The position numbers were made by a program, and so were the translations under genes. 61,519 bases of DNA from a virus (lineage: Duplodnaviria > Caudoviricetes). Position 1 is the stretch's first letter, and each line of letters begins with the position of its first letter. The notes beneath the pieces were generated by a model. The model saw only the letters and a program-made list of their open reading frames with translations, was not told the DNA's origin and did not search any database. The stretch covers positions 1-61,519 of the IMG/VR virus record IMGVR_UViG_3300032213_001563; one strand, 5' to 3'. This document shows positions 1-60,060 of this stretch, piece by piece.

Positions 1-167
1 CGTCTAGAACTTCCTGCCCTCGCCGCGTCTAGAACTTCCTGCCCTCGCCGCGTCTACGTCTAGAACTTCCTGCCCTCGCCGCGTCTACGTCTAGAACTTC
101 CTGCCCTCGCCGCGTCTAGAACTTCCTGCCCTCGCCGCGTCTACGTCTAGAACTTCCCGCCTCGCCG
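1..167. repeat. Tandem repeat CGTCTAGAACTTCCTGCCCTCGCCG (25 bp, or 31 bp with an extra CGTCTA), continuing from the window end
   Basis: Units at 1-25, 26-50, 51-81, 82-112, 113-137 and a degenerate unit at 138-167; same unit at 61452-61519. Confidence 0.97.
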
Positions 168-262
168 CCTCGCCGCCCCTTTTCCGTGTGATTCCCCGGC
201 CCTTCCCCTTTGCTAGGCAGTTATCTAGTAAGGTGAATTGTGTCCGCATAATTCCCCGGCAG

Positions 263-283
263 CTTAGAACCATTGGTTCTAAG
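263..283. repeat. Early-region palindrome copy 1, CTTAGAACCATTGGTTCTAAG
   Basis: Inverted repeat seen directly. Confidence 0.95.
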
Positions 284-302
284 CGAGTCACAAAAAAGAT
301 CC

Positions 303-323
303 CTTAGAACCATTGGTTCTAAG
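303..323. repeat. Early-region palindrome copy 2
   Basis: Identical to copy 1; ends 27 nt before ATG 351. Confidence 0.95.
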
Positions 324-350
324 CTCACCCAAAAACAACCAGCCCACCCT

Positions 351-566
351 ATGACATCATCCCCTCTCCAGAAAGACAACGGCAAAGTCTCGTGGATTCC
401 CCAGCCCGGTGACTCCTATCTTGTCACCGGCACTGACCGCGATGGCCGCCGCTTCCGTCGCTCTTGTCCATCATGGGCCTATGCCGCAGGTATCAACTTG
501 TGGCGCGGCTCTCGCTGGCTAGTCCGTGATGGTCGCCGATTCAGGATCAATACAACCGTCAATTAA
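351..566 (+). CDS. Hypothetical early protein (71 aa)
   Basis: ATG 351 follows the palindrome and an A/C-rich leader; the upstream extension in the ORF track runs through the palindromes. Confidence 0.65.
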   Translation: MTSSPLQKDNGKVSWIPQPGDSYLVTGTDRDGRRFRRSCPSWAYAAGINLWRGSRWLVRDGRRFRINTTVN

Positions 567-570
567 CCCG

Positions 571-592
571 CTTAGAACCACGTGGTTCTAAG
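571..592. repeat. Early-region palindrome copy 3, CTTAGAACCACGTGGTTCTAAG
   Basis: 22-bp perfect palindrome 4 nt after a stop codon. Confidence 0.95.
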
Positions 593-621
593 CCCATCCA
601 AAAACAACCAACGCCATCCCC

Positions 622-798
622 ATGAAACAAGAAGTATCCACATTCCTCGCCCGTCTCAGAAAAGCAGGCCGCACCTATCCAGCCCGCAGCGTTGACAACA
701 CCGCGCATTTCCCCAGCGCGGCGATTCGCCGTCTCCAGATGGGACTGCCAGCCCGTCCTCGTGGCGATGACATCGAACTGCCAAACCTTTCCGCTTAG
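622..798 (+). CDS. Small hypothetical protein (58 aa, MKQEVSTFLARLRKAG...), below the ORF-track cutoff
   Basis: Translated by hand; fills the gap between palindromes 3 and 4; its TAG stop lies inside palindrome 4. Confidence 0.65.
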   Translation: MKQEVSTFLARLRKAGRTYPARSVDNTAHFPSAAIRRLQMGLPARPRGDDIELPNLSA

Positions 799-814
799 AA
801 CCAATGGTTCTAAG
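794..814. repeat. Early-region palindrome copy 4, CTTAGAACCAATGGTTCTAAG (reverse-complement centre)
   Basis: Seen directly; followed by short AACCCGAC repeats. Confidence 0.95.
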
Positions 815-850
815 CCCCGCAACCCGACAACCCGACAACCCGATAACCCT

Positions 851-1174
851 ATGACCACCGTCAGAGTTTACACGTCCCGCAACCCGCTACTCATTATTGA
901 CGGGTTCTCCGTCAGAGTAGAAGGCACAGCATCCCATCTTATGGGGTTGATTGACTCGCTCCTCACGGGCAGCCACTACATCGAAGCCGCCGAATTGGTG
1001 GCTGAGCCTGTCCTACTCCGTGCCTTGCGGCGAGTCCGAGAGGGTAGCCTTCCACCTGATAACCTTCTGGTCATCATGCCGTGCGGCAAGATCAACCCCG
1101 TTACGCCAGACGGTGACTTTGCGCTGCCCTGGCCCGGAGGCTTCTTTGAGTGGAGAGCCGCAGAACTATTCTAA
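851..1174 (+). CDS. Stand-alone DUF3696-like protein (resembles the C-terminal module of certain ABC-type ATPases)
   Basis: Ends EPVLLRALRRVREGSLPPDNLLV...DGDFALPWPGGFFEWRAAELF; ATG 851 follows an A/C-rich leader. Confidence 0.55.
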   Translation: MTTVRVYTSRNPLLIIDGFSVRVEGTASHLMGLIDSLLTGSHYIEAAELVAEPVLLRALRRVREGSLPPDNLLVIMPCGKINPVTPDGDFALPWPGGFFEWRAAELF

Positions 1175-1178
1175 TTTC

Positions 1179-1199
1179 CTTAGAACCATTGGTTCTAAG
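1179..1199. repeat. Early-region palindrome copy 5
   Basis: CTTAGAACCATTGGTTCTAAG 4 nt after a stop codon. Confidence 0.95.
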
Positions 1200-1252
1200 C
1201 CCCGCAACAATCTCCCGGCACCGCCGGGCCTAAACCCAAAACACAAAACACA

Positions 1253-1828
1253 ATGAAACTAACCGTAAAAGAAGCCCTCGAAGACATCGAAGGGTATAGC
1301 AAAGCAATCATGGACGTAGCCCCAGGCTTCCTTAGCAGGATGCCGAAGGGCATCACAGATGGGCGGGAATTGATGTCCCTCCTGACCTTCGGTGCTAAAG
1401 CCGAAATCGAGGCCGAAGGAGTCCTGCTCTGGGATCAATACCCTAGCGGGCGTCAAGCCGCTCGCAAGATCGAGCATGTCGCCCTCTCCGTGATGTGGCA
1501 GAGGCGGCAGAAGGAGCAAGAAGAGCCGTGCCCTTTGACGGAGGCATGGAAGAAATCGGGAGTCGATATGCCGCCGCCTGAAGTCATCAGCGCCATGCGT
1601 GAGATCCTCGGAATCCGCTCCAAGGACAAGGTAGAAATCACGGGGGAGTCCCTTGTGGATGATGACCATGGGCTGCCCATGGATTGCTTTCTGGCTCTCC
1701 AGAAAGTCCTGCCCGGTATCAGGGTCGTTCAGCGCAAGGTCATCTCTTGCCCTATCCTGCCCGTTGAGATAGCCCAGGCTACCCTAGACATCGTCCTCAT
1801 TAAGGCCCGCGCCATTGGCATCATGTAA
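1253..1828 (+). CDS. Hypothetical protein (191 aa)
   Basis: Long ORF with A/C-rich leader. Confidence 0.75.
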   Translation: MKLTVKEALEDIEGYSKAIMDVAPGFLSRMPKGITDGRELMSLLTFGAKAEIEAEGVLLWDQYPSGRQAARKIEHVALSVMWQRRQKEQEEPCPLTEAWKKSGVDMPPPEVISAMREILGIRSKDKVEITGESLVDDDHGLPMDCFLALQKVLPGIRVVQRKVISCPILPVEIAQATLDIVLIKARAIGIM

Positions 1829-2065
1829 AAACCAGCTTACCCCCTTTGCTAGGGAGTAATATAATGCACCGGGCTCCTCGGTTAAAATGAGTCGTGGCTA
1901 ACGATACTAGTCTAGCGGCCTTGCCCTCCGCGATAAAGCAACGGGCCTCCCACTTTCCCTCGTGTTGGGAATAGGGTGGGCCGGGGTATGGATGACCCGT
2001 TTTGTTTCCATGCTCCGGCCCTAATACCCTGCATCCCTCACGCCCTAAACCATTTCGGATTGATC

Positions 2066-2087
2066 CTTAGAACCACATGGTTCTAAG
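2066..2087. repeat. Early-region palindrome copy 6, CTTAGAACCACATGGTTCTAAG
   Basis: Seen directly, upstream of the AAA ATPase. Confidence 0.95.
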
Positions 2088-2128
2088 CCATCCGACAACC
2101 CAAGCACAAACCCAAAAACAACACGACA

Positions 2129-3736
2129 ATGGAAGCACCAAATGTAAAAGCAATCAATGCAGACAAAGCAACCCGCGAAGAAATGCGGGAGTGGATCAGT
2201 GAATCAGCCCGTGCCCTGACTCGCGCCATCCACGGGACGCCGTCGCTCTCCGGGCTGCGGGAAGTTATGAAACTCATAGGGCACAATAGCCTCAGCGAGG
2301 TCGTCGCTACGGGAACCATGGAGACGCTCAGGAAAGCCGTGGTCAGCCTCATGGAGCAAGCCGTCAAGCACGGCGTCCCCCTAGTAGGGGAGGGCGTCGA
2401 GCCATCTCTGCCCACGACTCCGCTTTTCACAGCGGATGAGATGGAAGAACTCAAAGCGAGGGTTACGGTGTTTGACCCCCTAGAAAAAGTTAGCGCAGAC
2501 ACCGAAGATGACGCCTCGCGCCTTGCTTCGGAGGCTACGGATCTAGCGCGCCGTGCCGCCGCTGCCGCTGCCGCCGCCGCCAAGGCCGCGGCTATGCCAC
2601 GCCCTGCCGCTGGTATGGCAGCCATTGACAAGGAGCGCATCGACAACGTGGAGCGTCTCGCCAACTCTACGGCGGCGTCCCTCCGCGATGAGTCTGCCAA
2701 GCTACGCGCCATGGAGGATAAGCTCGCCCCGCTCGCTGCTGTGCTCGATGCTATCACCGCGTCATCCGCCGCGTCAGCCCCGGCCCTGCCACCCGCTGCC
2801 GTTGCTGCCGTCAAGGCTGCTGTCACGGGGGATCGTCTCCTTAGCGAGGTGCTGCCGTTCTTCACTCCTGGGCTACCTCAGGGTAATCAGATTCCGTGCG
2901 TCGCTTCGCCGCCCTCCTTCGGCAAGACGTTCATGTCTGACGAGATTAGCCGCATCTATGACGGGTCATTCTTCCATCCGTTCAAGGACAGTCTTGACGA
3001 GATTGACTCGCTGGTTGGCACGCTCATGCCCCGCAGTGATGGCACGTTTGCTGTCATTGACGGGCCGCTTGTCAGCGCCGCTCGCCTTGCCAGCACTGGC
3101 GTCAATGTTCTCTTCGTTGGTGATGAGATCTTCAACGCCAGCAAGAAAACCCTGGAGTGGATGCAGTCCTTCCTATCGCCACGTCTCGTGCCCTACCTCG
3201 GAGCGGATGGCGTCGAAACCCTGCGCCGTTGCTTTGTCATCCAGACCAAGCACAGCATGGAGGATGGCACGTTTGAGGTTATCAAAGCGCCGGAAGAGAA
3301 CCTGCACTTCCTGTTCCTTGGCAACCTGCGCACCAACCCACCCGAGGCACTGATGTCACGCTGTCGCCTCATGCGCTTCGACTATGATCCTGCCTGGGCT
3401 GCTGATACAGCGTATGAGCGTCTCAATGGCTACAGTGGTGGCTTGTTCTCCGGCCCTGCTACTAAAGAATGGTCCCTCGCTTGGGCCAAGGCTATGACCG
3501 CCAGCCGTGAGGCATACTCACGCATGGAAGTCAGCCGCCCGCTATGCTTCCGCTTCCTGATCGGTGCTGTCACCCATGTATCCCGCCAGCCCGGCGCGAA
3601 TCTGGGTATGCTCACCGACTACGTAGCCAAGTGGTCTCCGCATCAGATCGCGGTGCAGAATGCTGCCACGCAAGACACTGATCCAACCAGTCGTGAGGCG
3701 GTGGGCAAGATCATCAAGGCTGCTTTCGCCAAGTAA
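2129..3736 (+). CDS. MoxR/CbbQ/CobS-like AAA+ ATPase with Ala-rich coiled-coil N-terminus
   Basis: Walker A SPPSFGKT, Walker B VLFVGDE, IDGPLVSAA motif, sensor Asn (LGN), ALMSRC arginine finger; followed by peptidase and vWA genes. Confidence 0.8.
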   Translation: MEAPNVKAINADKATREEMREWISESARALTRAIHGTPSLSGLREVMKLIGHNSLSEVVATGTMETLRKAVVSLMEQAVKHGVPLVGEGVEPSLPTTPLFTADEMEELKARVTVFDPLEKVSADTEDDASRLASEATDLARRAAAAAAAAAKAAAMPRPAAGMAAIDKERIDNVERLANSTAASLRDESAKLRAMEDKLAPLAAVLDAITASSAASAPALPPAAVAAVKAAVTGDRLLSEVLPFFTPGLPQGNQIPCVASPPSFGKTFMSDEISRIYDGSFFHPFKDSLDEIDSLVGTLMPRSDGTFAVIDGPLVSAARLASTGVNVLFVGDEIFNASKKTLEWMQSFLSPRLVPYLGADGVETLRRCFVIQTKHSMEDGTFEVIKAPEENLHFLFLGNLRTNPPEALMSRCRLMRFDYDPAWAADTAYERLNGYSGGLFSGPATKEWSLAWAKAMTASREAYSRMEVSRPLCFRFLIGAVTHVSRQPGANLGMLTDYVAKWSPHQIAVQNAATQDTDPTSREAVGKIIKAAFAK

Positions 3737-3749
3737 GTAACAATGAGGG

Positions 3750-3770
3750 CTTAGAACCATTGGTTCTAAG
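3750..3770. repeat. Early-region palindrome copy 7 (extends to GGGCTTAG...CTAAGCCC, 3747-3773)
   Basis: Seen directly, between ATPase and peptidase genes. Confidence 0.95.
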
Positions 3771-3807
3771 CCCCGCAACCCAGCAACCCTCCGACCCTAC
3801 ACCCATT

Positions 3808-4899
3808 ATGTCACCATCACCAGCACCACCCGCAACAACTCCTGTGCAGATGCGAGAATGGCGTCTCGCCTACAACTCATCCAAGCGCCGTCAAACCGTG
3901 AAGCCTGACGGCTCCGTCCGCCAGCGTGCGGGTAGCCTAGCCTACCTGTATAACAAGGCTCGCGAGGCCATCAGGATCAGGCTGATCGACACGGAGCTAC
4001 CATACAAAACTGCCAACTGGCAGTGGGATGGTAAGTCTCACGTCATCAACGTGCATCGCGATGTTCCGAGTGTGTTCTTCTCCTCCGAGGGAACCAATAC
4101 CTCACCTCGTCGCATCGGTCTAGCCAAGGCTGTCGTCGCCCATGAGGTATGTCACGGGCTGTACACCTCGCGGAGTCCCGATGCAGGCGATGATTGCGCC
4201 AGGGTGGGCATCCCCTTCCGCCTCCTCAACCTCATGGAGGATTGCCGCATCGAGCACGCTTATGTGACTCAGCGGGGCAAGGATCACAAGTTCAACTGGA
4301 AGATCTTTGACGACTTCATGCCCAAGACCGGCGACACGATCAAGTCTCCATCGGACTGGCTCTTTACCATGAAGCGGCGTGAGCCTGTGCTATTCAAACA
4401 CCCATCGAGTGTCATGGCTCCGTATAAATGGGGCGGCGCAGCTATGGTGATGATGCCAACGGTGAGCTACATACATCCGCTCAAGGAATACGAGGGGCTC
4501 CTCCTTCCAACCGTCGGCGTCTTTGAAAAGTTCTACGCTATTATTGTAGCGGCTAAGTCTACTGAGGAGCTCGTGCCCATTGCGGCCTACTGGAAGGATA
4601 CGTTTGGTGCGGAGTCCGCGTCAGACCTTCCGCCTATCCTAGTCAGGACTGTCCCGTCTTCCTTCGGCGACAAGGAAGATCCTATGGAGAGCGGCGGGTC
4701 TAGCGGTGCCTCTGAGGCGATTCGCACCCCTGACCACAAGCCGGTCGACTCATTGACGGGTGGCCCCCTTGCTACCGGTCGCTCTGCAATCTACGAGGAC
4801 CGGGTGGTGCACTCGCAAGCTGGTGATGTGCTAGCCCGTCCGACCCTTCGAGGCCTCATCCCCCTGGCAAAGTATCTCCAAAACTCACAATACGCATAA
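3808..4899 (+). CDS. Zincin metallopeptidase-like protein (CobT N-terminal-like MoxR partner)
   Basis: VAHEVCHGLYT (HExxH) followed by LLNLMEDCRIE. Confidence 0.75.
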   Translation: MSPSPAPPATTPVQMREWRLAYNSSKRRQTVKPDGSVRQRAGSLAYLYNKAREAIRIRLIDTELPYKTANWQWDGKSHVINVHRDVPSVFFSSEGTNTSPRRIGLAKAVVAHEVCHGLYTSRSPDAGDDCARVGIPFRLLNLMEDCRIEHAYVTQRGKDHKFNWKIFDDFMPKTGDTIKSPSDWLFTMKRREPVLFKHPSSVMAPYKWGGAAMVMMPTVSYIHPLKEYEGLLLPTVGVFEKFYAIIVAAKSTEELVPIAAYWKDTFGAESASDLPPILVRTVPSSFGDKEDPMESGGSSGASEAIRTPDHKPVDSLTGGPLATGRSAIYEDRVVHSQAGDVLARPTLRGLIPLAKYLQNSQYA

Positions 4900-4903
4900 C
4901 ATT

Positions 4904-5629
4904 ATGAAGAACAAGATCCCTGGTTTCAGATACGTCGTGGCTCAGTGCGTCACCAACAGCTTCGCTTCCGTCATGGAGCAGGCCGAGCCCGCAAATGCAG
5001 ACCCGTCACCCACGGGCAGCCGCCTCAATTATCACGCCATGTTCACCCATAGCTACGGCTCTGCTTTCCTACAGCCCGCAGCCGTTGACGGTATGCGCCG
5101 CGTCTTACTTATCGTTGACTTCTCCGGGTCGATGAAAGGCATGTGGGAGACCGGTGGTGCTGAGTTTGTGTGGGGGCTGATGCAGTTTGCTCGTCAAGGT
5201 GGATGCTACCTCAGAGTCCTCCTGACGGGGGATGCGGACGGCTCTTGTGAGCTGCCTGTCGATACACCCTTTGACATCTTCAGCAGTCTCGTCCCTTACG
5301 CCAGTCAAGAGTCATTCGCCCGCACCATGGAAACCCCGGTAATCACCGAGCTGATGGAGGATGCCGACATCACGGTGTGCTGGACCGACGGCCAACTAAC
5401 CGACGGATATGTTGACGCTATCCGCTGGCGTGAGAGGAACATCAACGTCGTGGGCGCATGTCTGGGCCATCCAGAGATGCACGCATACCATCCCACCAAA
5501 GCACGGATTAAATTATGGGAGGCGATGCAGGAATACTTCCACGCCTACTTCATCAGTGATCATCCGGCCAAGGTAGCCACGCTCTTATCTACCTGGGTGG
5601 CGTCGTGCCCCATCCGTAGCCTTCAATAA
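4904..5629 (+). CDS. von Willebrand factor A (vWA) domain protein
   Basis: MIDAS motif LLIVDFSGSM plus a later WTDG. Confidence 0.8.
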   Translation: MKNKIPGFRYVVAQCVTNSFASVMEQAEPANADPSPTGSRLNYHAMFTHSYGSAFLQPAAVDGMRRVLLIVDFSGSMKGMWETGGAEFVWGLMQFARQGGCYLRVLLTGDADGSCELPVDTPFDIFSSLVPYASQESFARTMETPVITELMEDADITVCWTDGQLTDGYVDAIRWRERNINVVGACLGHPEMHAYHPTKARIKLWEAMQEYFHAYFISDHPAKVATLLSTWVASCPIRSLQ

Positions 5630-5646
5630 ACCAACAACACGGGAGG

Positions 5647-5667
5647 CTTAGAACCATTGGTTCTAAG
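5647..5667. repeat. Early-region palindrome copy 8
   Basis: CTTAGAACCATTGGTTCTAAG between genes. Confidence 0.95.
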
Positions 5668-5694
5668 CCCCTCAAAACACCCTACCATAAACCT

Positions 5695-6219
5695 ATGAAA
5701 ACCATCGAAAAATTCTGCCATATCCACCACGCCTGCCCCGAGGGTAGGGAGTGGGCCATAGCCAACTGCTCTAACATGCAGGAGGCGTGGGACAAAGCCC
5801 CCGACCCCTCATGGGTTCTCTGGATCGCCACCCGTCAAGGCGTTTTGACCGACCGCGAACTCCGTCTATTTGCGGTCTGGTGCGCTCGACAGGTGCAGCA
5901 CCTACTGACCGATCCGCGTTCGGTTAATGCTATCGACGTAGCGGAACGCTATGCTAACGGCGAGGCTACCGACGAGGATCTAGCCGCAGCCAGGGACGCA
6001 GCCAGGGCCGTAGCCTACGACGCATCCTACGCCGCAGCATGGCCCGCACCCTACGCCGCAGCCGCAGCCAGGGGCGCAGCCTGGGCCGCAGCCAGGGGCG
6101 CAGCCTGGGCCGCAGGCAGGGCCGCAGCCTGGGCCGCATCCTACGCCGCACCCTACGCCGTAGCCACAGCCACCCAAGCCCAATGGCTACGTGAGATCAC
6201 CAAACCCAAATTCGACTAA
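5695..6219 (+). CDS. Phage protein with (AAW/AAR/AAY) low-complexity repeats (Imm5-like phage family)
   Basis: LRLFAVWCARQV...DPRSVNAIDVAERYANGEAT followed by Ala-rich repeats. Confidence 0.7.
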   Translation: MKTIEKFCHIHHACPEGREWAIANCSNMQEAWDKAPDPSWVLWIATRQGVLTDRELRLFAVWCARQVQHLLTDPRSVNAIDVAERYANGEATDEDLAAARDAARAVAYDASYAAAWPAPYAAAAARGAAWAAARGAAWAAGRAAAWAASYAAPYAVATATQAQWLREITKPKFD

Positions 6220-6223
6220 ACCT

Positions 6224-6523
6224 ATGGAGCCACCAAAACATTTGAGGTCCGCATCAGTGAAACAGATGCCCGCTGATCGTGCTAAGATCACAACCATTGA
6301 CAAGTCAAACCCCTCATTCCCTGCTGTCTGCATCGTCTGGACCGACGCCAAGATGCAGCCTGACGACTTCAACCTATCCGAGCTCGGTGATGTTGAAGCA
6401 ATCCAGTCCGACTTGCTTGCCTGCCCACCTCGCGGATGGGTTATGCTTCGCGGCGAGTGCCGTCGAAAGCTAGGCAGCTTCGTCAAGCTTCTACCCAAAA
6501 GACTCCGCCCTAAACGCCTATGA
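6224..6523 (+). CDS. Hypothetical protein
   Basis: ATG 4 nt after the previous stop; ATGA overlap with the next gene. Confidence 0.55.
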   Translation: MEPPKHLRSASVKQMPADRAKITTIDKSNPSFPAVCIVWTDAKMQPDDFNLSELGDVEAIQSDLLACPPRGWVMLRGECRRKLGSFVKLLPKRLRPKRL

Positions 6524-6876
6524 TTCCGCCACTATACTTCGACCCCACAGAACCCACCGTCTTCTACCGTAAGCTAGAAGTCGGTGAGATAATAATGGAT
6601 GGGGACCGGGGCATAATTAGACCCGACGTACCCGAAGGAGGCGGTAGTGTTGACCTCACCCACAGAACAATCTGCGGTGGATGTACAGTAAAGAGTAGTG
6701 ACGGCAACCTCTACTTCCGAAGGATCACCCCCGAACCCCCGAAACCCGAATCCCCTAGCCCCCTCAATGAGCTCTTCGACTTATGGTTCATCAAGTACTC
6801 TCCCGTCTGTGTTGACGAAGATGAACGCAGAGTATGGGAGCGAGCCATCAAGGCAATGAACCCAACCGAAAAGTAA
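6520..6876 (+). CDS. Hypothetical protein
   Basis: ORF in tightly packed + strand run. Confidence 0.65.
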   Translation: MIPPLYFDPTEPTVFYRKLEVGEIIMDGDRGIIRPDVPEGGGSVDLTHRTICGGCTVKSSDGNLYFRRITPEPPKPESPSPLNELFDLWFIKYSPVCVDEDERRVWERAIKAMNPTEK

Positions 6877-6908
6877 CAATCCCCCAAACCAAAAACAACA
6901 CCTATGAA
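6872..6908 (+). repeat. 37-bp perfect direct repeat, copy 1 (stop + leader + start)
   Basis: AGTAACAATCCCCCAAACCAAAAACAACACCTATGAA, identical at 7430-7466. Confidence 0.95.
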
Positions 6909-7434
6909 GCACACCCTCACTGTAACCGCCGAGCTCATCGGCTCCGCTATCCAAAGCTATCTAAAAAGTTTTGGTCACACCAACATAACCACCTCCAGTG
7001 TTGACGGCGAACTCGTTTGTACGACCGAGCACGCTGCCCGCCGAAGTTTTGGAGACCCAATCCCGGCCACATGCAAGTGGCCGCACGACTGTTTCATCCA
7101 GTGCGGGGACAATGGGGCTGTCCTCGTTTGGGATAAGGGCAACTACACGACTGCATTCTGGGAGGCGTTCCCCCGCAATCTAGGCACCTTTTTGCGTGGT
7201 GAAGGTAGCACTATCGAGGAAGCTGAGAAAGACTGCTTCGCTCAGTATGAGCGCATCCTCGCCTGCCCAGGCCACGAGTTTGAAAGGCGCAAGTATGAGA
7301 GCGGCGCAGGGATCTGCAAGCACTGCAACCTACTCCAATCTAAAGTATTCGAGCCGACCGAAGCGTGGAAAGAGAAGGAGGCCGCGTCACTCGCCAAGAT
7401 AAAAGCGTCGCTAGAACTCCAAGATAAAGAGTAA
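6904..7434 (+). CDS. Hypothetical Cys/His-containing phage protein
   Basis: 176-aa ORF, TAFWEAFP and CPGHEF...CKHC motifs. Confidence 0.75.
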   Translation: MKHTLTVTAELIGSAIQSYLKSFGHTNITTSSVDGELVCTTEHAARRSFGDPIPATCKWPHDCFIQCGDNGAVLVWDKGNYTTAFWEAFPRNLGTFLRGEGSTIEEAEKDCFAQYERILACPGHEFERRKYESGAGICKHCNLLQSKVFEPTEAWKEKEAASLAKIKASLELQDKE

Positions 7435-7466
7435 CAATCCCCCAAACCAAAAACAACACCTATGAA
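7430..7466 (+). repeat. 37-bp perfect direct repeat, copy 2
   Basis: Identical to 6872-6908. Confidence 0.95.
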
Positions 7467-8325
7467 AACGAAACTACATTCCTATCACTTCAACCTCAAG
7501 CATATCCCCGATCACCAAGCATACATGCTGCTCAAGGAGCGCATGAAGCGCGAGTCCCGTCGAGGTGACCGCATCAAGCTTGTGGACGCCGCACCCCGAG
7601 ACAGTCAATCATTTGATTTCCTGAAGCTCCTTACCCAGGACGATAATCTCACCACTTACGAGGTCGAGCTAGACATCAAGCATGTGTTCAATAATCAATG
7701 GAACTCCGCAGATACGTTGGATCACTCAGGCTACCGTGTCTTCGATTGGGTTGAGTATTACAACCCCCGTAATGTCAGTTTAATCCGGGGCCATTGGCTG
7801 GAGGTGACGGATGAGATGGTAGCTACCCGCGAGAATACCCTTAAGTGCGGCTACTGCGGCGCTCAATACGGCCCGCATCACCAAGCCAGTGAGCACCCTG
7901 ACTTCTGCATGAAGTGCCTCGATAGCCCTTACCTCAAGGAGGAAGACCTTGGGCTGTTGCGCTTATATCCAGTCAGCGCGGATCACAGACCCCAATCCAT
8001 CGAGTTGTCTAGCGAAGACAGAGCATGGCTGCTACCCCGCTACACTGAAGCCCAGATGAAGGGCAACAAAGACAGGGCAGAGTCCCGTGCTCTCAAGCAG
8101 CGCGAGGCTCTTGAGGAAAAGCGCGCCCTTAATGATATGGAGTATGCTGGATTCGACCAGCTACTGAACGCCGGAATTGACACCGGGAATATCATCTTCC
8201 ACAGTCACATTCCGGTATTCAAATTCGGGTGGCGCTCCGCCCTGTCGCCTTCGGTTGCAGAAGCTATGAAGGCGAAGGTCGAAGAGATCGGATTCAAGTT
8301 CCCGACAGAGTTCGCCATCGCCTAA
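7462..8325 (+). CDS. Hypothetical protein with a Zn-ribbon-like CxxC...CxxC
   Basis: CGYCG...CMKC in a 287-aa ORF. Confidence 0.75.
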   Translation: MKTKLHSYHFNLKHIPDHQAYMLLKERMKRESRRGDRIKLVDAAPRDSQSFDFLKLLTQDDNLTTYEVELDIKHVFNNQWNSADTLDHSGYRVFDWVEYYNPRNVSLIRGHWLEVTDEMVATRENTLKCGYCGAQYGPHHQASEHPDFCMKCLDSPYLKEEDLGLLRLYPVSADHRPQSIELSSEDRAWLLPRYTEAQMKGNKDRAESRALKQREALEEKRALNDMEYAGFDQLLNAGIDTGNIIFHSHIPVFKFGWRSALSPSVAEAMKAKVEEIGFKFPTEFAIA

Positions 8326-8337
8326 CTTACTTTCAGG

Positions 8338-8368
8338 GAGTCCTTAGAACCTGAGGTTCTAAGGACTC
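8338..8368. repeat. Early-region palindrome copy 9 (variant with 14-bp arms GAGTCCTTAGAACC-TGA-GGTTCTAAGGACTC)
   Basis: Same core arms, different loop, extended pairing. Confidence 0.93.
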
Positions 8369-8394
8369 TCGATCAACAACAACCCCACAAAAAT

Positions 8395-8688
8395 ATGAGC
8401 AAGTCAAAGTTCCCTGGCCTATTCGCGCCGCCTATCCCAACGATTGGATTCAATCACCTACCCTACGTAGATGCTAACGTGTTACACTTCCACCAACATG
8501 CTCTTATGCGGGGCGTTTGCGAGCTACTGATCCGCATTGGGGGTGACGCCATCGAAGAGAGCTTTGAGGAGGTGACGCCGACAACGCGTAAACTTCTCCA
8601 AGATCTACGCGATGCAGGCTATGCCTATGTCCGGTTCTCTACCGCCCATACAACCTACCCCGATATTTGGCCTGTCTTTTCTTGGTAG
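8395..8688 (+). CDS. Hypothetical protein
   Basis: ORF after palindrome and A/C leader. Confidence 0.7.
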   Translation: MSKSKFPGLFAPPIPTIGFNHLPYVDANVLHFHQHALMRGVCELLIRIGGDAIEESFEEVTPTTRKLLQDLRDAGYAYVRFSTAHTTYPDIWPVFSW

Positions 8689-8689
8689 T

Positions 8690-8720
8690 CCCCGCAACCC
8701 CGCAACCCCGCAACCCCGCA
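8690..8720. repeat. CCCCGCAA 8-bp tandem repeat (about 4 copies), intergenic
   Basis: Seen directly; CCCCGCAAC also follows palindromes 4, 5 and 7. Confidence 0.85.
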
Positions 8721-8725
8721 GCACT

Positions 8726-8917: not shown

Positions 8918-8964
8918 TCCCAAACCCCTCCACCGCTCCATCGCTACATCCCGCCAACCCTGCC

Positions 8965-9180: not shown

Positions 9181-9183
9181 TTT

Positions 9184-10978: not shown

Positions 10979-11062
10979 AAAATCATTTGTGCTACCAAGA
11001 TTGTAGTATAAAACCACCGACCTAGACAGATGCGTCTAGTAACCCGTAAACCCATCACCACT

Positions 11063-11335: not shown

Positions 11336-11343
11336 ACCAATTC

Positions 11344-11450: not shown

Positions 11451-11476
11451 AAACAACCCCCCCCCCAGCAACCCCG

Positions 11477-13687: not shown

Positions 13688-14278
13688 TCAGGGGTTACGT
13701 TCTTTCGTCATCCAGCACCATTCGGGATAAACAACGTCGTCTTCCTCATAAGACTGCTTCGGCAACTGGACCTTGAGGTTTAGACGGCAACCACATTGCG
13801 AGCAGTTATGCAACCTAGCCGCAGCATCAGGGACACGGGCGGCGGGGAGGATGCCATCCATGGCAACAACCTCGCCCAGGCGCGCATCGCATGAAGCGCA
13901 CCCACCAGCCCTGACATTGCGTGGGCAGGTAGCGCAGATCTCAGCGCGTTTATTGACGAGTTCCATGGGGGCGAGGTTCGCCCCGCCGAGAATCCAGTTC
14001 TTTGCTGTAGTGAAGAAGCGCCCGAGGGTTTCAAAAGTAACACCGACCACAGCGGTCGATGTTGAACTATCACAGTAAGGAGGCTTCAGCCCCATCTGTT
14101 CGCAGATAGAGTGCTCGATCTGTTCGTTCGTCATAGGCTCCCTACCATTTAAGGAGAGGAACCCACGGACGGCGGTGATGAGTTTGCTGGCGGAGAAATT
14201 GGCGATGTAGCTTCCCGTCACCGGGTCGCGCCAGCGCCATTTTCCATTCGGGGTTGAGGCATTGTGGTTGATCTTCAT
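13688..14278 (-). CDS. Cys-rich (Zn-binding) hypothetical protein
   Basis: RAEICATCPRN...CASC...CSQCGC. Confidence 0.7.
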   Translation of the reverse strand: MKINHNASTPNGKWRWRDPVTGSYIANFSASKLITAVRGFLSLNGREPMTNEQIEHSICEQMGLKPPYCDSSTSTAVVGVTFETLGRFFTTAKNWILGGANLAPMELVNKRAEICATCPRNVRAGGCASCDARLGEVVAMDGILPAARVPDAAARLHNCSQCGCRLNLKVQLPKQSYEEDDVVYPEWCWMTKERNP

Positions 14279-17200
14279 TTTTCTTCCCAGTGTGGTGCGA
14301 TTTCTCGGGCGTAGATTCTCTCTTGGATGACGCTCTGCACGTACTCTTTCGCGTCCTCGGAGATTTTCTTTACTTCTTTCTGCGCGGCTTCGCGGCCTTC
14401 ATTGCCCTCAGCAGCTAGATCTGTCAGGGCTTTGATGGTGTCTGGAGGCAGCATCATTGTGACCTGCTCACCGAATAAGCGTAGCGCATCAATCTCGACC
14501 TCGGGAGGGAAGCTTGACAGAAGTCCGCCTTCCTCGTCGATCTCGTCAGACCCTTTCACGTAAGTCTTGAACCTCATATCGCTTCCCTTCGGAGGCGACA
14601 GGAACAAACCGGCACTGACCAGCGGCGTCATTACAGGATCGTATCCATCATCAGCTGTCATTGGCAGGATACGTTTGGTCATAGGGGCGTACCAGAAGTT
14701 CGTCACCGGACGACCCATACTATTGACCATGTTCGGACGGCCCAGGCTTTCGCCGTAGAACTCGTTTGCGGGCAGCGTGCTGATGAGCGCGGTAGCCAGA
14801 CCACGAGCGTCAAGCGAGTGACGGGTATCTGGCAGTGCATATTCCCCGCCATCCAACAGCCCGCTGGCCATACTTGCTACGTTACCTACAAGACGTGGGT
14901 TGGTTGCACCAGCGACAAAGTTGACCCCCATATCTACCAAGTTGCGGGCGGAGGTCGCCTCTGCTTGTGGGTTGTCGCTGAGTATCTCGCCAACTTGCGC
15001 GAGTCCCTGGAGGGAGTTCTTCACCGTGACAGCTTTGATGAACGCCACCGAAGCGTTTATGGAACTTTCAAGCGCACGGATTTTTGTGGGGTCTTTCTGA
15101 CTACTGACCATCCTATCATCCGTGAGCGCGGCGAGCGCCCCGAAGAATAGGTTGAAGCCAGGAATGTCTTTCCACGATATGTAAGCATCGCCCATCTTGA
15201 GCGTATAGGGAGCCCACCTTGGTTGGCGGTAGCGAAGCTGACGATTGCGCTCAGAGTCTGGGTAGCCCTTACCGTAAACCATGAGCCACGGAACGCGCCC
15301 CTCCATCTCGTCTTCAAGACCTGCTTTATAGAAAGCCCCGAGCGTCAACTGTGTTGCCAAAGCAAAGAATCCCTGAGCAAGGAGCTTGTATTGATTGATA
15401 GACCCAGACTCAACTCGTGCCCTACGGTAGTTATTATCTTCACTGAAGAACCAGCTTGACGGGCTTGCATTGAATGCGCGCCCAAAGGATACAAGACCCA
15501 GCGGGAAGCTCAATGCCAGCGAGAAGTCCATCAAGTTACCCATTGATCGGGTGAAGGATACGACCACTGAAGACAGCCCTCCTGTCTTGCGTTCAACCCA
15601 TCCGAGGATTCCGTCAAAAAGCCATCCAGATAGGCCCGTCGGATTATTGCTCAGATTGGCAAACCGAGCAGACTCCCGACTCGCGTCCATGAAGTTCTCT
15701 TTTGCTGTCGCGTCAAGGTCGATGGCCAGTTCATTGTAGAGACGTTCGCGGCGCTGCTCAAGTAGCTGCGCTCTGCGGGACTTCATCGCTAGATCAGGAC
15801 GTGGGCTGTTGCGGAACTGCTCACGTTCAGACGCTAGAATCATCTCGATCTCACGGGCTGCTGCCTCGTCAGGGGTAAAGGACTCGCGCATGATCTTCTT
15901 CATCGTCGCTTGGTCTGCGCCGTTCATTGTCAAGACATAGTTAATGGCCAGACGTTGACGAGCGATAGAGGATGGGACCGATACGGTCGCATCTATGACC
16001 GCCCCGATTCTCCCAAGCAATTTGTAGAAGTTCTTTTTCGCAGTCATCAGCGACTTGATGAACGGCAGGTCGATCACAGGGATGTCGCGCTCCAAGATTA
16101 GCAAACTCTCACTTGCTTCGGAGGCAAAGCGGGAACGCCCGGTTCGTGCGGCCCTGTTCATTTCGTTCCAAACCTCAGGGCGAGCCACCGGATCGAGGAC
16201 CCATGTAGCGGCTTTCATCATAGTGAGCAGATTGCTAGCTGCGAGGCGAGGGTCTTTTGCTTTGACGGCGTAGGCAACGCTGTTGAACCCGAGGTCCATA
16301 AGCGTCTGCACCATACCGTAACCAGCGTTGACCTCGGCGGTGCCGAATCCGCTTAGCACTCCAGACTTCCACATTGCCACCGGGATAGCGGCTAAGTATG
16401 TGGACCTGAGCGTGCCGCTCTTAACGAGTGACTTGAATCCATACGCGGCGATGAGCGACTTGTGGAGTTCACTGACAACCCGAGCATTCAATTCCTGGAC
16501 GGCGTCATTGCGCTGCACGGAACCAAGCGGCATCGACATGATGCGGTTTGCTTCACGGTCTAGCTCGTCAGCTATGACGGGATCATACGATGGTAGCCCG
16601 AACTCCACAGCCATAGCGTTGTAGAACTCTTCTTGACGGAGCCCACCGAGGCGGGCGAGGCGCAAGAATTTCTCACTGCGGGAGAAACGTTTCGTATTAT
16701 CACGCTCAGCGAAGTCTGACCGGCTCCTTGCGTAGCTAACCAGCGTGCGTTGGATGCGGCGGTTAAGCTCAGCTTCGTAGGCGGTTTTGAAAGCCTCCGC
16801 CACCTTGCGGGATTGCTCCTCGTTGAGCCCTGCGGTGCTGGAGATCATCCCCGCTAGGTTTGCTACGGTTGCATTTCTTTCTGTGATGGACAGGTAGATT
16901 TGCTCACGCATGTCGATCGACTTGCGCACAATGTTGGCAGCCATGCTTAGCGGAACGAGGTCAAACTCCATGGCCTCGATAGCTGCTTTGGCAGCTTCGT
17001 ATTGTTTCAGGGCTTCGGGGGATGCGTCCTTCGGAGCGGCGAGGCTGGCGAGAAGCTTTGCCTTGCTCTTGTTGAGGGCATCTTCCACGCTCGGAGCGAA
17101 CTCAGTAATGGATGCTGCCAACTCACGGATGGAGCGTTTCAGCGCCTCCTTCTTGGCTGCTTCCTGTTGTGCGGGCGTTAGCTCTGGGGACGGCGGCTCG

Positions 17201-20200
17201 ATCTCTGCAAGGGCTTCGTTGATGCGGATCGCGACGAGGCGCTTCACCTCGTCAGAGTATTCCTCGAAGAAGGATTTCTCCGAAATGCCAGCGGCTTCGG
17301 CAGCCTTCTTGACTTGCCCACGGATCTTGCCGTCAACCATACCGACCATCTTATCAGAGACCCACTCAGCCATCTGCTCAGGGATAGAGATGTCTGGCTC
17401 ACCAGCAGCGAGACGATCCAGCGAGTCCAGTAGGTCAGCCAGAAGTTTGACCTCAGCAGGGCTACCGCCAGCGGCTTTGGTCACTGCTTCGATGATCTTC
17501 TTGAGGAGCGGAGATTTCTTGACGGCATCTTCAGCGGAAGCGTCAGCGTCCTTCTTCAGCTCAGGGAATAAGTCTTTGGCATCTTTAGGCAACTTCTCAC
17601 GGGAACCCTTATCGACCGCGTCTTTGTAAGTCGCCCCCGCTGTTTTAGGGTTGAACAGTTCCTGGGCGAGCTTGGCTGCTGCGAGCATTCGACCGGAGGT
17701 AGAGGCAACGTCTTGAAGGCTGCGCCCTTGAAGCTTGGCTTGATCTTCAAGATCCTGCAATAGGACAAGACCTCCAGGAGTCGGAGTCTTTGCCATCGCA
17801 GTCGTCAAGTCTTGGACCCGGCGGTTGAGTGCTTGGACAATAACAACACGAGCGAGGAATCGCTGCACGTCCGTCAGGTCATACACGCCGCCCGCAACAC
17901 TGGCGTCGAGTGCGCTGAAGTCCGACGCTGAGGAGAGACTAGCTAGCTTGGCACCGATTTGGGCTTCGACTTGTTTAAGGTCAATCTCTTTGGTAGAGCT
18001 GAAGTAGGTGCTCTCCTTCAGGTATTCTGCAACCTTCGTTGGCATTGCTGGCAGTGAGCCTCTCAGAGCTTGCGTCACTTTGAGCACGCCGGTCACTGTG
18101 CCTGGGATGGTGCGAACCGGGGCTAGGCTGTATTTAGTCTCGGCCTCGGGCAGCGAACTCATCATCTCCATGTCAGACTTAGCAACCTGAGCGGCCAGCT
18201 CATTTATGCCGTCGCCGATGACCGGAGGATTCGTCGTGTCAGGATTGCGGCTCACGTTGACCAGCACCGATGCTTCTTCTTGAGCGGCTTTCTGTGCGAA
18301 CTCCGTGCTCTCGGCTGGAGGGAATTGACCGTAAGCGGCGGGCATGACGCCCGGCTGGATCACAACCTGCGGGTTCTCCGCAATGTTGAAGACACGGTCA
18401 AGGCTTTTCTCCAAAGCAGAATCACGTGGCAGATCGGGGAACACCGCTTGATAGAGTTTGCTCAGGATGCGCTGGATGAAGTTAGGGCGTCCTTCGGCAG
18501 CGGCTACGTCAGCACCGACGGAGGGTGGCAGGGTTGCCAGCCATGAACTGAATCGAGTATCCGCCAGGACACCGGCGATGAACTCTTCTGTATCAGCCAA
18601 CTGGTAAGCGAACTCGTCACTTTCAGGAGTTGTCTTGGCGAACTCAGCAGCAGATTTGCGGAGCTTGTCAAGCTCGTCGAATGCTTGCTTGACCGGCTCG
18701 GACACCTTGCCCAGCAGGTAGTTGTTGTACGCGATCGAGGTTACTGCGTGCGAGCTTTCGTGGATCAGGGTTTCAATGATCCATGCTTTCGTCAGCGTTG
18801 ATTGCATCGTGCCTTTGAACTCTGGCTTCACGAAGCTCAGGTTCAGAGAGATGGTGTGCTCATTCGGATCGTAAGCGCCAGAAGGACGGACGATCTGGTT
18901 TCCGTTGACGGCTTGCTTTGCCCCGACGCAGAGCGACAGCCCGCGTAGCGTGGCAACATCCGCATGGGCGGCTAGGTATTCAGCAACCTTGCGGCGAGCT
19001 GGGTCCACGCCTTCCATATTAGCGATAGCGGAAAGAGCGGCCCGCACAGAGGCTGGGTCTCCGTCAACCAATCCGAGTTCTTCCAAGACAAACTTGGTCG
19101 CGTCTTCTTCAGACAGCGGAGTAGTCTCAGGAGTCTTGCCGTCGAAGGCTTCACGAGCGCCGCTACGCATTGCTTGACGCAGCATCTCGGCCTCAGCCAT
19201 GTCATCCCTGGCCTGCTTAGCAGACTTGCCAGTCTTGCGGGCGTAGATGTCAGGGATCTCAGAGTTATTCGGGCGGGCAGGCAGCGCCACAGACAAGCTG
19301 TTCTTGGAACCAACGCCCATCGCGTCGAGGAATGACTCGATATTGAGGATTGCTTTTGTGGCGTTGATGTCGCCGTAAGCTCTCCACCATGTCAAGAATT
19401 GACGGGCGGAAGCTCTCAGGAAGGCGATCGTTCTAGCAAGCGTGCCTGAGGATGCAGACATCATTTCCAGAATGTCTTCTGTCGTATGTCCATTTTCAGA
19501 CACTTGACGCATCATGCGGTAGTAGTCAGCACCAAGCTGCACCATGCCAGCAGCGCCGTCCGGTGTGGAGCTTGACGTGCCGCGTGCAAAGTAAGCCAAG
19601 TAGTTTGGGTCTTCTGGGGTGAGGCCATAGACCTGTCGGATAATCCGATGCCGGGTTTCAGGGCTGAGAGACTCGGCGGTGTCAATGAGTTCGCCGTCGC
19701 TAAAGCGTTGTAGGATCGCAAGGGTTGACGCCTCACGATCAAGCAGCGCGTTGAGGTATGTGGTGATGCCCTGCGCGTCAAGACCACGAGAGCGTAGCGA
19801 CCCGACAAGCTCGGTCAGAGCTTCCTCGTTCACATAGACTGCTGTGTCAGACCTATCACGGCTGACAAAGAGAGGCTGCGAAGGAATGCCAGGACCACCA
19901 GCAACCATCTTGATCTCACGTCCAGTCTTGACTTTAGCGGCACGGAGGAACGGAGCGAAGTCAAGAGGCTTCTTGACACCGTCTTCCGCGACCTCAACTA
20001 CGGATTCAGCAAGCGGGGTTGCTTCTTCAACCGGGACGTCGGACTCAGGAAGCAAGCCGATGTTAGTCTCAGCGATGCCTTCAGGGTCCGCAGCGGCAGA
20101 GTCGTCGCCAAGCAAGCGAGCCTCTACGGTATTGGTCGAAGCTGGGGAGTTAGCTAGATCGACGGCTTCACGAACCTTGGCAACGTGGCTGACTTCCTTG

Positions 20201-60037: not shown

Positions 60038-60060
60038 GCTTAGAAACAAATGGCTCTAAG

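What the first reader, a model, noticed from the sequence alone, without database searches (positions are those of the whole stretch)
263..8368. Early genes are partitioned into cassettes by nine copies of one palindrome (CTTAGAACC-N3/4-GGTTCTAAG)
Seen: copies at 263, 303, 571, 794, 1179, 2066, 3750, 5647 and 8343, plus a decayed one at 60039-60060. Each good copy is at a gene boundary, usually just after a stop codon (one supplies the stop) and about 25-55 nt before the next ATG. I saw none in the virion or replication operons. The arms are invariant while the centre varies in sequence and length (ATT, AAT, TGA, ACGT, ACAT), and copies 7 and 9 extend pairing with different flanks. That pattern fits selection for a hairpin better than a fixed-spacing operator, and no U-tract follows. 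Inference, three options: (a) integron-attC-like recombination sites letting the phage gain, lose or shuffle accessory/anti-defence genes, perhaps via its own tyrosine recombinase; (b) hairpin promoters analogous to phage N4 early promoters, read by an injected factor; (c) RNA processing/stabilising hairpins analogous to T7 early RNase III sites. This is the best candidate for an undescribed system.
Basis: partly seen in the sequence, partly recalled or inferred. Interest (0 to 1): 0.85.

Follow-up and report, generated by a model that had tools for sequence, protein, structure and literature searches.

The report
Palindromes heading phage early-gene cassettes
An uncultured phage puts one exact 21-22-base palindrome in front of each of its presumed early gene blocks; it most likely acts as a phage-specific start signal for transcription, possibly read as a DNA hairpin as in coliphage N4, but no reading enzyme was found.

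Summary
In detail: nine exact copies of CTTAGAACC-N3/4-GGTTCTAAG lie at 263-8363, one decayed copy at 60039, and none is expected by chance. All are intergenic and lie 27-53 nt before the next ATG. Five related uncultured-phage contigs keep 5-10 copies in the same slots. A more distant relative has a different inverted repeat, GTTGCA-N3/4-TGCAAC(AC), in the same slot. The arms never show compensatory change, which points to base-specific reading rather than mere pairing. No sigma-70-like promoter precedes the cassettes. In two relatives a strong terminator is followed only by the palindrome and then genes. The 3897-aa virion protein is a remote, collinear homologue of N4's injected RNA polymerase in two segments, but no polymerase module was detected. 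Best reading (0.4): a lineage-specific transcription start or control element, probably of hairpin-promoter type. Rivals: duplex operator, RNA hairpin, recombination site. Cassette order differs from a 91%-identical relative, with breakpoints at the palindromes, as in PeSL cassettes of T4-type phages. The scan noted the same motif family on other DNA (e1-6184460). There are no transcript data.

The parts
263..283 (+). Palindrome copy 1 (loop ATT). It is the first of a tandem pair at the head of the array; there is no gene before copy 2.
303..323 (+). Palindrome copy 2 (loop ATT), 27 nt before ATG 351.
571..592 (+). Palindrome copy 3 (4-nt loop ACGT), 4 nt after the stop at 566 and 29 nt before ATG 622.
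794..814 (+). Palindrome copy 4 (loop AAT). Its TAG at 796-798 ends ORF 622-798. It lies 36 nt before ATG 851.
1179..1199 (+). Palindrome copy 5 (loop ATT), before the conserved 191-aa gene 1253-1828.
2066..2087 (+). Palindrome copy 6 (4-nt loop ACAT), before the conserved 535-aa gene 2129-3736.
3750..3770 (+). Palindrome copy 7 (loop ATT, GGG/CCC extension), before gene 3808-4899. In the relative G004 the same slot holds a different inverted repeat.
5647..5667 (+). Palindrome copy 8 (loop ATT), before the block 5695-8325.
8343..8363 (+). Palindrome copy 9 (loop TGA). With its flanks it forms a 16-bp stem. It is the last copy; the genes after it have no palindrome.
60039..60060 (+). Decayed copy (2 mismatches), next to four 22-bp repeats. 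Intact copies sit at the matching place in L072 (6637) and G003 (24073, 24184).
207..232 (+). Second recurring upstream motif (CCCTTTGCT...TAnTAT-like), here just before copies 1-2. A further copy is at 1843, with variants at 60283 and 60714. It is a possible alternative promoter class.
14275..25968 (-). 3897-aa virion protein, a remote collinear homologue of N4 gp50 in residues 408-538 and 2363-2441. It is the candidate delivered reader of the palindromes; that role is inferred, not shown.

Best explanation
The palindrome is a cis-acting DNA signal that heads each left-end (presumed early) transcription unit. It is read base-specifically by a factor particular to this phage lineage. The most likely mechanism is N4-like logic. 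The inverted repeat is extruded or recognised as a short hairpin (9-bp stem, 3-4-nt loop). It then serves as the promoter, or an obligatory part of it, for transcription that does not use the host's sigma-70-type recognition. As a by-product, the repeated 21-bp identity makes the cassette boundaries recombination hot spots, which explains the shuffled and replaced small genes.

Shown: the copies, their positions, their conservation pattern, the lineage-specific replacement, the lack of host-type promoters, and the partial gp50 homology.

For: 1. Every copy points into a gene on the + strand, 27-53 nt upstream of its ATG. None lies elsewhere.

2. The sigma-70-type scan finds 4 sites in 1-14000 against 7.3 expected. 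None is on the + strand ahead of a palindrome-headed cassette. A textbook divergent pair (TTGACT-17-TAATAT and TTGACT-17-TAACAT) sits at 48537-48605, between the virion and replication blocks. So the host type of promoter exists in this genome but is not used at the cassettes.

3. In G002 (633-662) and L072 (about 7305-7340) a GC hairpin with a T7-T8 run is followed 6-28 nt later by the palindrome, then a leader and gene, with no other conserved element.

4. The array head carries tandem copies: 263/303 here, 690/764 in G002 and 24073/24184 in G003. In the N4-like phage LUZ7, nine early start sites were mapped, most with hairpins, and the two strongest lie in tandem 33 nt apart (PMC9163698, passages).

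5. Relatives with about 87% identical terminase keep 5, 10, 9 and 9 copies in the same slots. G004 (65% terminase identity) has orthologues of the flanking genes but a different repeat. There are 14 copies on the + strand, 12 of them in 13.6-26.7 kb, against 1.07 expected, and one lies between the same two genes.

6. Of the 9 core pairs, 6 never vary, 3 vary on one side only, and 0 change on both sides in 40 distinct sites. The loops differ in sequence, and in length in 2 of 9 sites here. In G004 the spacing is N5 or N6, about half each. This fits base-specific reading of a B-form stem.

7. All four orthologous sites changed loop between L072 (TCA) and this phage (ATT or ACAT), although the flanks are 91% identical.

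8. Profile comparison of 15 giant proteins with 8 Schitoviridae virion polymerases gives two collinear matches. Residues 408-538 match N4 293-418 (probability 94%, E 1.5e-7). Residues 2363-2441, including HExxH, match N4 2206-2267 (95.8%, E 8e-9). The spacing is 1825 aa against 1788 aa. A reversed-template control gives at best 0.3%. The order of membrane-like N-terminus, low-complexity linker, middle part, HExxH domain and large C-terminus matches the published gp50 layout (PMC13434306, passages).

9. The AlphaFold model of residues 842-1978 has 4 BFVD matches at E <= 0.001. Rank 4, and rank 10 at E 3.7e-3, are second segments of Vibrio phage virion RNA polymerases.
Against: 1. No polymerase module was found. 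The giant protein has no hit in Pfam, PHROGs or PDB sequences. Its middle part (900-2362) against the N4-family polymerase domain gives probability 0.2%, E 0.33. Against T7 RNA polymerase it gives 0.1%. The model of 842-1978 (pLDDT 66.5) has 0 PDB fold matches at E <= 0.001. The C-terminal half looks like LPD38/LPD39 polyvalent-protein domains. My T7-like motif look-alikes are not conserved in the family. This negative is weak, because the positive control (N4-family domain against T7) reached only 5.2%.

2. N4 promoters conserve the loop and its closing pair and let the stem covary (PMC4496689). Here it is the reverse.

3. Neither strand's hairpin is consistently better. Mean folding energy is -16.2 (sense) against -16.9 (antisense) kcal/mol. 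These are RNA parameters only, because the DNA parameter file was not found. Arm position 4 is A-T in 14, G.T in 12 and A.C in 14 of 40 sites on the sense strand, and never G-C.

4. A second upstream motif carrying a -10-like box could be the true promoter, with read-through of the palindromes.

5. No transcript ends were available.

6. No other RNA polymerase gene was found among about 60 ORFs scanned.
Confidence: 0.4

Rival explanations
1. Duplex operator. A dimeric phage (or host) DNA-binding protein binds the two 9-bp half-sites on ordinary double-stranded DNA. It switches the accessory cassettes off or on together, as a global regulator with many operators does, or as a road-block in the manner of mycobacteriophage stoperators.
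For: - The half-sites are invariant and show no compensatory change.
- 40 of 42 sites have exactly 3 central bases.
- Sites carry at most one weakened half-site: A,A in 14, one G in 26 and G,G in 0 of 40. This is what a dimer that tolerates one poor half-site predicts.
- In L072, G002 and G003 a copy lies 0-60 nt upstream of the second motif with a -10-like box.
- Many-site phage repressor systems exist (PMC9283540; search listing and start of abstract only).
Against: - 2 of 9 copies here have a 4-nt centre. In G004 the spacing is N5 or N6, about half each. A rigid dimer tolerates that poorly.
- No host-type promoter is present for the operator to control.
- No clear helix-turn-helix regulator was found. 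There are only weak hits: HTH_28 at E 0.042, Sigma70_r4_2 at 0.036, and a DnaD-like domain at 0.02.
- Isolated half-sites are not enriched: 5 with up to 1 mismatch outside the nine copies, 2 of them in the decayed copy, against a shuffle mean of 11.7 for the whole genome (observed total 23).
Confidence: 0.25
2. RNA hairpin. The region is transcribed as long polycistronic RNAs from a few upstream promoters. The palindrome then acts in the RNA, as a 5' or 3' stabiliser, a processing site for a hairpin-specific nuclease, or an insulator that also supplies stop codons between shuffled cassettes.
For: - The copies are intercistronic and lie just after stop codons.
- One copy supplies the stop. The arms contain TAG and TAA, and TGA loops add the third frame (read from the sequence).
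- A subset has stems extended by different flanks, and relatives carry TTCG-loop mini-hairpins beside them.
- The second motif could be the only promoter.
Against: - On the sense strand 14 of 40 sites have an A.C mismatch at arm position 4. G-C, the most stable pair, never occurs.
- The extension helix is paired in only 49% of cells, and the covariation score is reached by 28 of 500 shuffles.
- Stem sequence is invariant while loops are free. RNA-binding proteins usually read loops and bulges, not A-form stems (established knowledge).
- Strong terminators lie directly upstream in two relatives.
- RNase III needs about two helical turns (established knowledge), and these stems are 9-16 bp.
Confidence: 0.15
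3. Dedicated recombination sites. The palindromes would be integron-attC-like or transposon-end-like sites, at which the phage's tyrosine recombinase or another hairpin-specific enzyme excises, inserts and reorders gene cassettes.
For: - Compared with the 91%-identical L072, two cassettes are in swapped order and one is replaced. Block ends lie 0-40 nt from palindromes.
- The leftmost cassettes hold one small gene each, and these differ among G000, G002 and G003.
- The very same palindrome forms both ends of a high-copy 350-820-bp element in several Oscillospiraceae MAGs.
Against: - A 3-4-nt centre cannot hold the 6-8-bp crossover region of tyrosine recombinases (established knowledge).
- The recombinase is a generic Xer-like protein. 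It scores 29.7 bits against a cut-off of 265 on the integron-integrase model.
- No HUH/Y1 transposase turned up in the Pfam scans.
- Unique genes turn over just as much in 8.4-13.6 kb, which has no palindrome.
- The palindromes also flank genes kept in fixed order in all relatives.
- Nothing beyond the palindrome matches the MAG elements. About 35 single chance hits to this pattern are expected in 596 Gb (my arithmetic).
- Ordinary homologous recombination between 21-30-bp repeats explains the shuffling, as proposed for PeSLs (PMC2839356).
Confidence: 0.07

Closest known systems
Hairpin early promoters of coliphage N4 and N4-like phages such as LUZ7, read by the injected virion RNA polymerase gp50 (PMC4496689, PMC9163698, PMC13434306; passages read)
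   Same: - Short inverted repeats with 3-nt (LUZ7 middle promoters: 3-4-nt) loops lie upstream of early genes in one part of the genome.
- There are several copies: 3 in N4 and 9 mapped early starts in LUZ7.
- LUZ7's two strongest early start sites lie in tandem, and terminator hairpins precede the next promoter in the N4 sequence.
- The phage encodes a giant virion protein with gp50-like N-terminal and HExxH segments in the same order and spacing.
   Different: - The stem is 9 bp and invariant with a free loop. In N4 the loop and closing pair are fixed, the stem is 5-7 bp, and its other bases covary.
- No polymerase domain, no second (RNAPII-like) polymerase and no BLAST-level similarity to Schitoviridae were found.
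- The genome is 61.5 kb and has no relative among 50,697 GenBank phage records.
PeSL (promoter-early stem-loop) cassettes of T4-type phages RB49 and phi1 (PMC2839356; abstract and passages read)
   Same: - A repeated regulatory element sits between small, mostly orphan early genes.
- Close relatives differ by insertion, deletion, replacement and reordering of the flanked genes at the element.
   Different: - PeSLs are about 100 bp. They consist of a strong sigma-70-like promoter plus a GC stem-loop that terminates transcription.
- Here there is no sigma-70-like promoter and no T-run.
- The conserved part is just 21-22 bp with base-invariant arms.
Stoperators of cluster A mycobacteriophages, and multi-operator global regulators such as KorB of IncP plasmids (PMC9283540: listing and start of abstract only; KorB recalled, from no call)
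   Same: Many identical short sites lie at gene boundaries, all read by one element-encoded protein, and they differ between lineages.
   Different: - Stoperators are asymmetric, are bound by a monomer and are spread over the whole genome (start of abstract).
- These sites are symmetric and confined to 8.3 kb.
- No repressor gene was identified.
Integron attC sites (features recalled, from no call)
   Same: An array of same-direction, often single-gene cassettes is separated by palindromic sites that could fold as hairpins.
   Different: - attC sites are 57-141 bp, imperfect, and have extrahelical bases.
- They need an IntI integrase, and the recombinase here fails that model.

Membership tests
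N4-type virion-polymerase hairpin promoter | Inverted repeat able to form a short hairpin with a 3-nt loop, upstream of early genes, in several copies in one region | tested here: met
   There are 9 copies, 7 with a 3-nt and 2 with a 4-nt centre, all 27-53 nt before an ATG or before the next copy.
N4-type virion-polymerase hairpin promoter | Loop and closing-pair bases are conserved (a GC-rich heptamer centred at -11); the other stem bases are free as long as they pair (PMC4496689) | tested here: not met
   The loops are ATT, AAT, TGA, ACGT and ACAT here, and TCA, TGA, TGG and TCG in relatives. The stems are invariant, with 0 of 9 pairs showing compensatory change.
N4-type virion-polymerase hairpin promoter | A virion-packaged protein with a single-subunit RNA polymerase domain | tested here: inconclusive
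   The giant virion protein matches gp50 in two flanking segments. Its middle part gives no match to the N4-family or T7 polymerase domains and no PDB fold match. BFVD ranks virion-polymerase segments 4th and 10th. The method's positive control was weak.
N4-type virion-polymerase hairpin promoter | Transcripts start 11-14 nt downstream of the hairpin centre; the process depends on gyrase and SSB | not testable with these tools
   No RNA run was listed, and this needs bench work.
PeSL cassette | Strong sigma-70-like early promoter inside the repeated unit | tested here: not met
   There is no + strand sigma-70-like site ahead of any cassette in 1-14000.
PeSL cassette | Stem-loop plus association with orphan genes that are shuffled between close relatives at the element | tested here: met
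   Searches show swapped order and replacement, with block ends 0-40 nt from the palindromes.
Integron (attC plus IntI) | Integron-type integrase | tested here: not met
   The TIGR02249 score is 29.7 bits against a cut-off of 265. The best hit is a generic Xer-like model, also far below its cut-off.
Integron (attC plus IntI) | attC architecture: 57-141 bp, imperfect, with extrahelical bases and R/L boxes (recalled) | tested here: not met
   The element is a 21-22-bp perfect palindrome.
Intrinsic terminator | GC-rich hairpin followed by a T-run | tested here: not met
   The flanks after all nine copies are C/A-rich. True terminators with T6-T8 exist elsewhere, at 12264-12295 and 61316-61341.
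RNase III processing site (T7 early type) | About 20 bp or more of double-stranded RNA (established knowledge) | tested here: not met
   The stems are 9 bp, and at most 16 bp with flanks.

The most novel reading that the evidence does not exclude
This clade is a second, sequence-unrecognisable lineage of phages that inject their own polymerase. Its gp50-like giant protein would keep N4's N-terminal and HExxH scaffold, but its middle part would be a polymerase (or a polymerase-recruiting module) diverged beyond detection. That module would read 9-bp-stem DNA hairpins through the stem rather than the loop, and its specificity would have switched wholesale between sister lineages (CTTAGAACC versus GTTGCA).
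Probability: 0.2. Interest if true: 0.85.

Novelty: new variant of a known kind. Interest (0 to 1): 0.62.

Why it matters
Hairpin promoters read by an injected polymerase are known only from N4-like phages. A clade with no detectable similarity to them except two short segments of the giant protein would show that this strategy is older and wider than the family Schitoviridae.

If the palindrome turns out to be an operator or an RNA signal instead, it is still useful. It is a clean, minimal (21 bp) example of a lineage-specific control element. It partitions anti-defence-type accessory genes into exchangeable cassettes, and natural evidence shows reordering at the element.

Either way it gives a sharp, cheap test. 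One synthetic 21-mer, in hairpin and duplex forms, can be tried against a handful of candidate proteins.

Tried and rejected
- **Transcript evidence.** The look-up of sequencing runs (kind rna, window 1-9000) listed no RNA holder. So read laying was not used.
- **Near relatives in GenBank phages.** There is no match for the first 9 kb or for the 754-aa portal candidate.
- **Prophage or host search.** The terminase query in genome contigs found no relative. The host stays unknown.
- **More distant relatives through the 535-aa early protein.** Only the same 6 contigs came back.
- **Rfam.** There are 0 matches at gathering scores in the whole window.
- **Strand preference of the hairpin.** None was found. 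The DNA parameter file was missing, so both 'DNA' columns repeat the RNA values.
- **Isolated half-sites.** They are not enriched.
- **Tandem 25-31-nt end repeats containing TCTAGAAC.** I considered them as extra half-sites. They have 2-3 mismatches, one at an invariant position, so I dropped the idea.
- **T7-like motifs A, B and C in the giant protein.** DG[ST], TKR and HD look-alikes occur in the right order. The TKR is unique to this phage, and G004 lacks all three, so I rejected it.
- **crAss-type DxDxD motif.** It is absent.
- **Fold of the conserved 287-aa early protein (7462-8325).** The model is confident (pLDDT 92) but has 0 PDB matches at E <= 0.001. It is not informative about the palindrome.
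- **The 167-aa protein 60795-61298.** I considered it as a reader. It has only a weak DnaD-like hit (E 0.02) and 14 relatives in 1.84 billion representatives. It sits beside repeats that look like an origin, so a replication role is more likely.
- **Oscillospiraceae match as a host clue.** I rejected it, because nothing beyond the palindrome is shared.
- **Literature.** I ran three searches only. None was aimed at this clade or motif, so I do not claim that it is unpublished.

Full report
**Observation.** The pattern CTTAGAACC-N3/4-GGTTCTAAG occurs exactly nine times, at 263, 303, 571, 794, 1179, 2066, 3750, 5647 and 8343. None of 100 dinucleotide-preserving shuffles gave a match. Allowing three mismatches adds only the decayed copy at 60039. 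The window is a complete 61,519-bp virus record. All copies are intergenic on the strand of the left-end genes. The gap to the next ATG is 27-53 nt. Five copies start 4-17 nt after a stop codon, and copy 4 contains the stop. Copies 1 and 2 are a tandem pair with no gene between them. No T-run follows any copy; the leaders are C/A-rich. C/A-rich, Shine-Dalgarno-poor leaders are a genome-wide trait: an SD-like motif appears in 6 of 62 ORFs listed.

**Genome context.**
- The + strand genes run to 13.6 kb. A - strand virion block (13.7-48.5 kb) includes a 3897-aa ORF. A + strand block follows with a recombinase, a helicase-nuclease, a DNA polymerase and a primase-helicase.
- No GenBank phage is similar.
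- 'Early' and 'left end' are inferences. The terminal repeat is an assembly-level call, and related contigs run through the junction.

**Relatives.** A terminase search in IMG/VR gave 43 loci, and I fetched five records whole.
- G001, G002 and G003 (about 87% identical terminase) carry 5, 10 and 9 variants of the palindrome. L072, whose DNA is 91% identical over 5 kb, carries 9. All sit before genes in the same direction.
- The slots before the conserved genes are the same in all of them. These genes are the 191-aa, 535-aa, 363+241-aa and following blocks, and the slot after the 287-aa gene also matches. The leftmost cassettes hold one small gene each, and these differ between genomes.
- G004 (65% terminase identity) has orthologues of five left-end proteins but no copy of this palindrome. 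Instead it has GTTGC(A)-N-(T)GCAACAC. There are 14 copies on the + strand, 12 of them within 13.6-26.7 kb, against 1.07 expected. One lies between the orthologues of the 535-aa and 363-aa genes.
- G005 (48% identity) keeps the C/A leaders and has only a few, different, long palindromes.

**Conservation pattern.** In 42 aligned sites (40 distinct), 6 of the 9 core pairs never vary, 3 vary on one side only, and none shows a change on both sides.
- Arm position 4 is A-T in 14 sites, G.T in 12 and A.C in 14. It is never G-C.
- Pairing of the flanks occurs in a subset only: 49% of cells, and covariation is not above the shuffles.
- Neither strand folds consistently better.
- What is conserved is therefore the base identity of both arms, not just pairing. 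Centres are free in sequence. Their length varies in 2 of 9 sites here and about half-and-half in G004.
- The four sites orthologous between L072 and this phage all changed their loop (TCA to ATT or ACAT), while the flanks stayed 91% identical.

**Promoters and terminators.**
- No sigma-70-like site precedes a cassette. A well-placed divergent pair of such sites lies at 48537-48605, and true intrinsic terminators with T6-T8 runs exist.
- In G002 and L072 such a terminator is followed within 6-28 nt by the palindrome, then a leader and gene, with nothing else conserved. This is my strongest argument for a restart signal.
- A second recurrent motif, CCCTTTGCT...TAnTAT, precedes some units and could be another promoter class. 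It keeps the read-through alternative alive.

**Who reads it?** No RNA polymerase gene was found among about 60 ORFs scanned.
- The giant protein has no Pfam, PHROG or PDB-sequence hit. Its 11 database relatives are 3472-4747 aa, and 3 of them carry PF18760. I recall that family as an ADP-ribosyltransferase of polyvalent proteins.
- A profile of 15 family members against 8 Schitoviridae virion polymerases gives two confident, collinear matches. Residues 408-538 match N4 gp50 293-418, and the HExxH region 2363-2441 matches gp50 2206-2267. The spacing is nearly equal. A reversed-template control is negative.
- The published gp50 layout is a membrane-spanning N-terminal domain, a low-complexity linker, the polymerase, a C1 domain with HExxH, and a large helical C2 domain (PMC13434306). 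This protein has the same order of features.
- The middle part, however, gives no match to the N4-family polymerase domain or to T7 polymerase. Its model has no PDB fold match. Against BFVD it has 4 matches at E <= 0.001; virion-polymerase segments rank 4th and 10th, with low TM-scores.
- The profile method barely links N4 to T7 (5.2%), so the negative is weak.

**Recombination.**
- Compared with L072, two cassettes are swapped and one is replaced, with block ends 0-40 nt from palindromes. This is the pattern described for PeSL cassettes (PMC2839356).
- A dedicated site-specific system is unlikely. The centre is too short, the recombinase is a generic Xer-like protein far below the integron-integrase cut-off, and turnover is as frequent where there are no palindromes.

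**Verdict.** I read the palindrome as a lineage-specific transcription start or control signal, most likely of hairpin-promoter type (0.4). The rivals are a duplex operator (0.25), an RNA hairpin (0.15) and a dedicated recombination site (0.07). The rest is unassigned. Function is inferred throughout, because no transcript data could be had.

Noticed in passing
window 207-232, 1843-1868, 60283, 60714; L072 6718, 8509, 9714; G002 16, 1302, 3493; G001 1434; G003 24206: A second recurring upstream motif, about aCCCTTTGCTtcGcAGTAaTAT, carries a -10-like TAnTAT box at a non-sigma-70 spacing. In L072 it replaces the palindrome in front of the orthologue of gene 351-566.
   Followed up: partly
window 1829-2065: A 237-nt non-coding stretch after the second motif at 1843 is about 91% conserved in L072 and has no Rfam match. 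It may encode a small RNA.
   Followed up: partly
loci L077-L196 (genome contigs), e.g. L087 972/1793, L088 4442/4968: The identical palindrome CTTAGAACC-N3-GGTTCTAAG forms both ends of a high-copy 350-820-bp repeated element in several Oscillospiraceae MAGs. A CTTGGAACC...GGTTCCAAG version recurs in Saccharibacteria MAGs. Nothing else matches the window.
   Followed up: partly
window 60062-60150 and 60220-60275; gene 60795-61298: Four 22-bp direct repeats and a (GGGAAGCA)n run lie next to the decayed palindrome. Downstream is a 167-aa protein with a weak DnaD-like hit and its own terminator. Together they look like a replication origin with its initiator.
   Followed up: partly
window 1-160 and 61444-61519: About eight tandem 25-31-nt repeats sit at both record ends. 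They contain TCTAGAAC, which resembles the palindrome's half-site, and may be why the assembly broke here.
   Followed up: no
window 53988-54377 and 11030-11335: Pfam hits: the dATP/dGTP diphosphohydrolase N-terminal domain (E 2.3e-28), which hints at modified DNA bases, and the Acb2/Tad1 hairpin domain (E 7.4e-07).
   Followed up: no
window 7462-8325: This 287-aa protein (phrog_26133) has homologues in the Caulobacter, Burkholderia, Hafnia, Clavibacter and Stenotrophomonas phages listed. It folds confidently (pLDDT 92) into a shape with no PDB match at E <= 0.001.
   Followed up: yes
window 2129-5629: By eye, the three conserved genes look like an AAA+ ATPase (GKT and DE motifs), an HExxH protein and a VWA protein (DxSxS). 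None has a Pfam, PHROG or NCBIfam hit.
   Followed up: partly
window 6874-6903 and 7432-7461: The 30 nt upstream of genes 6904 and 7462 are identical.
   Followed up: partly
whole window: Shine-Dalgarno-like motifs precede only 6 of 62 ORFs, and leaders are C/A-rich and G-poor in all modules. The host probably uses few SD sequences.
   Followed up: partly
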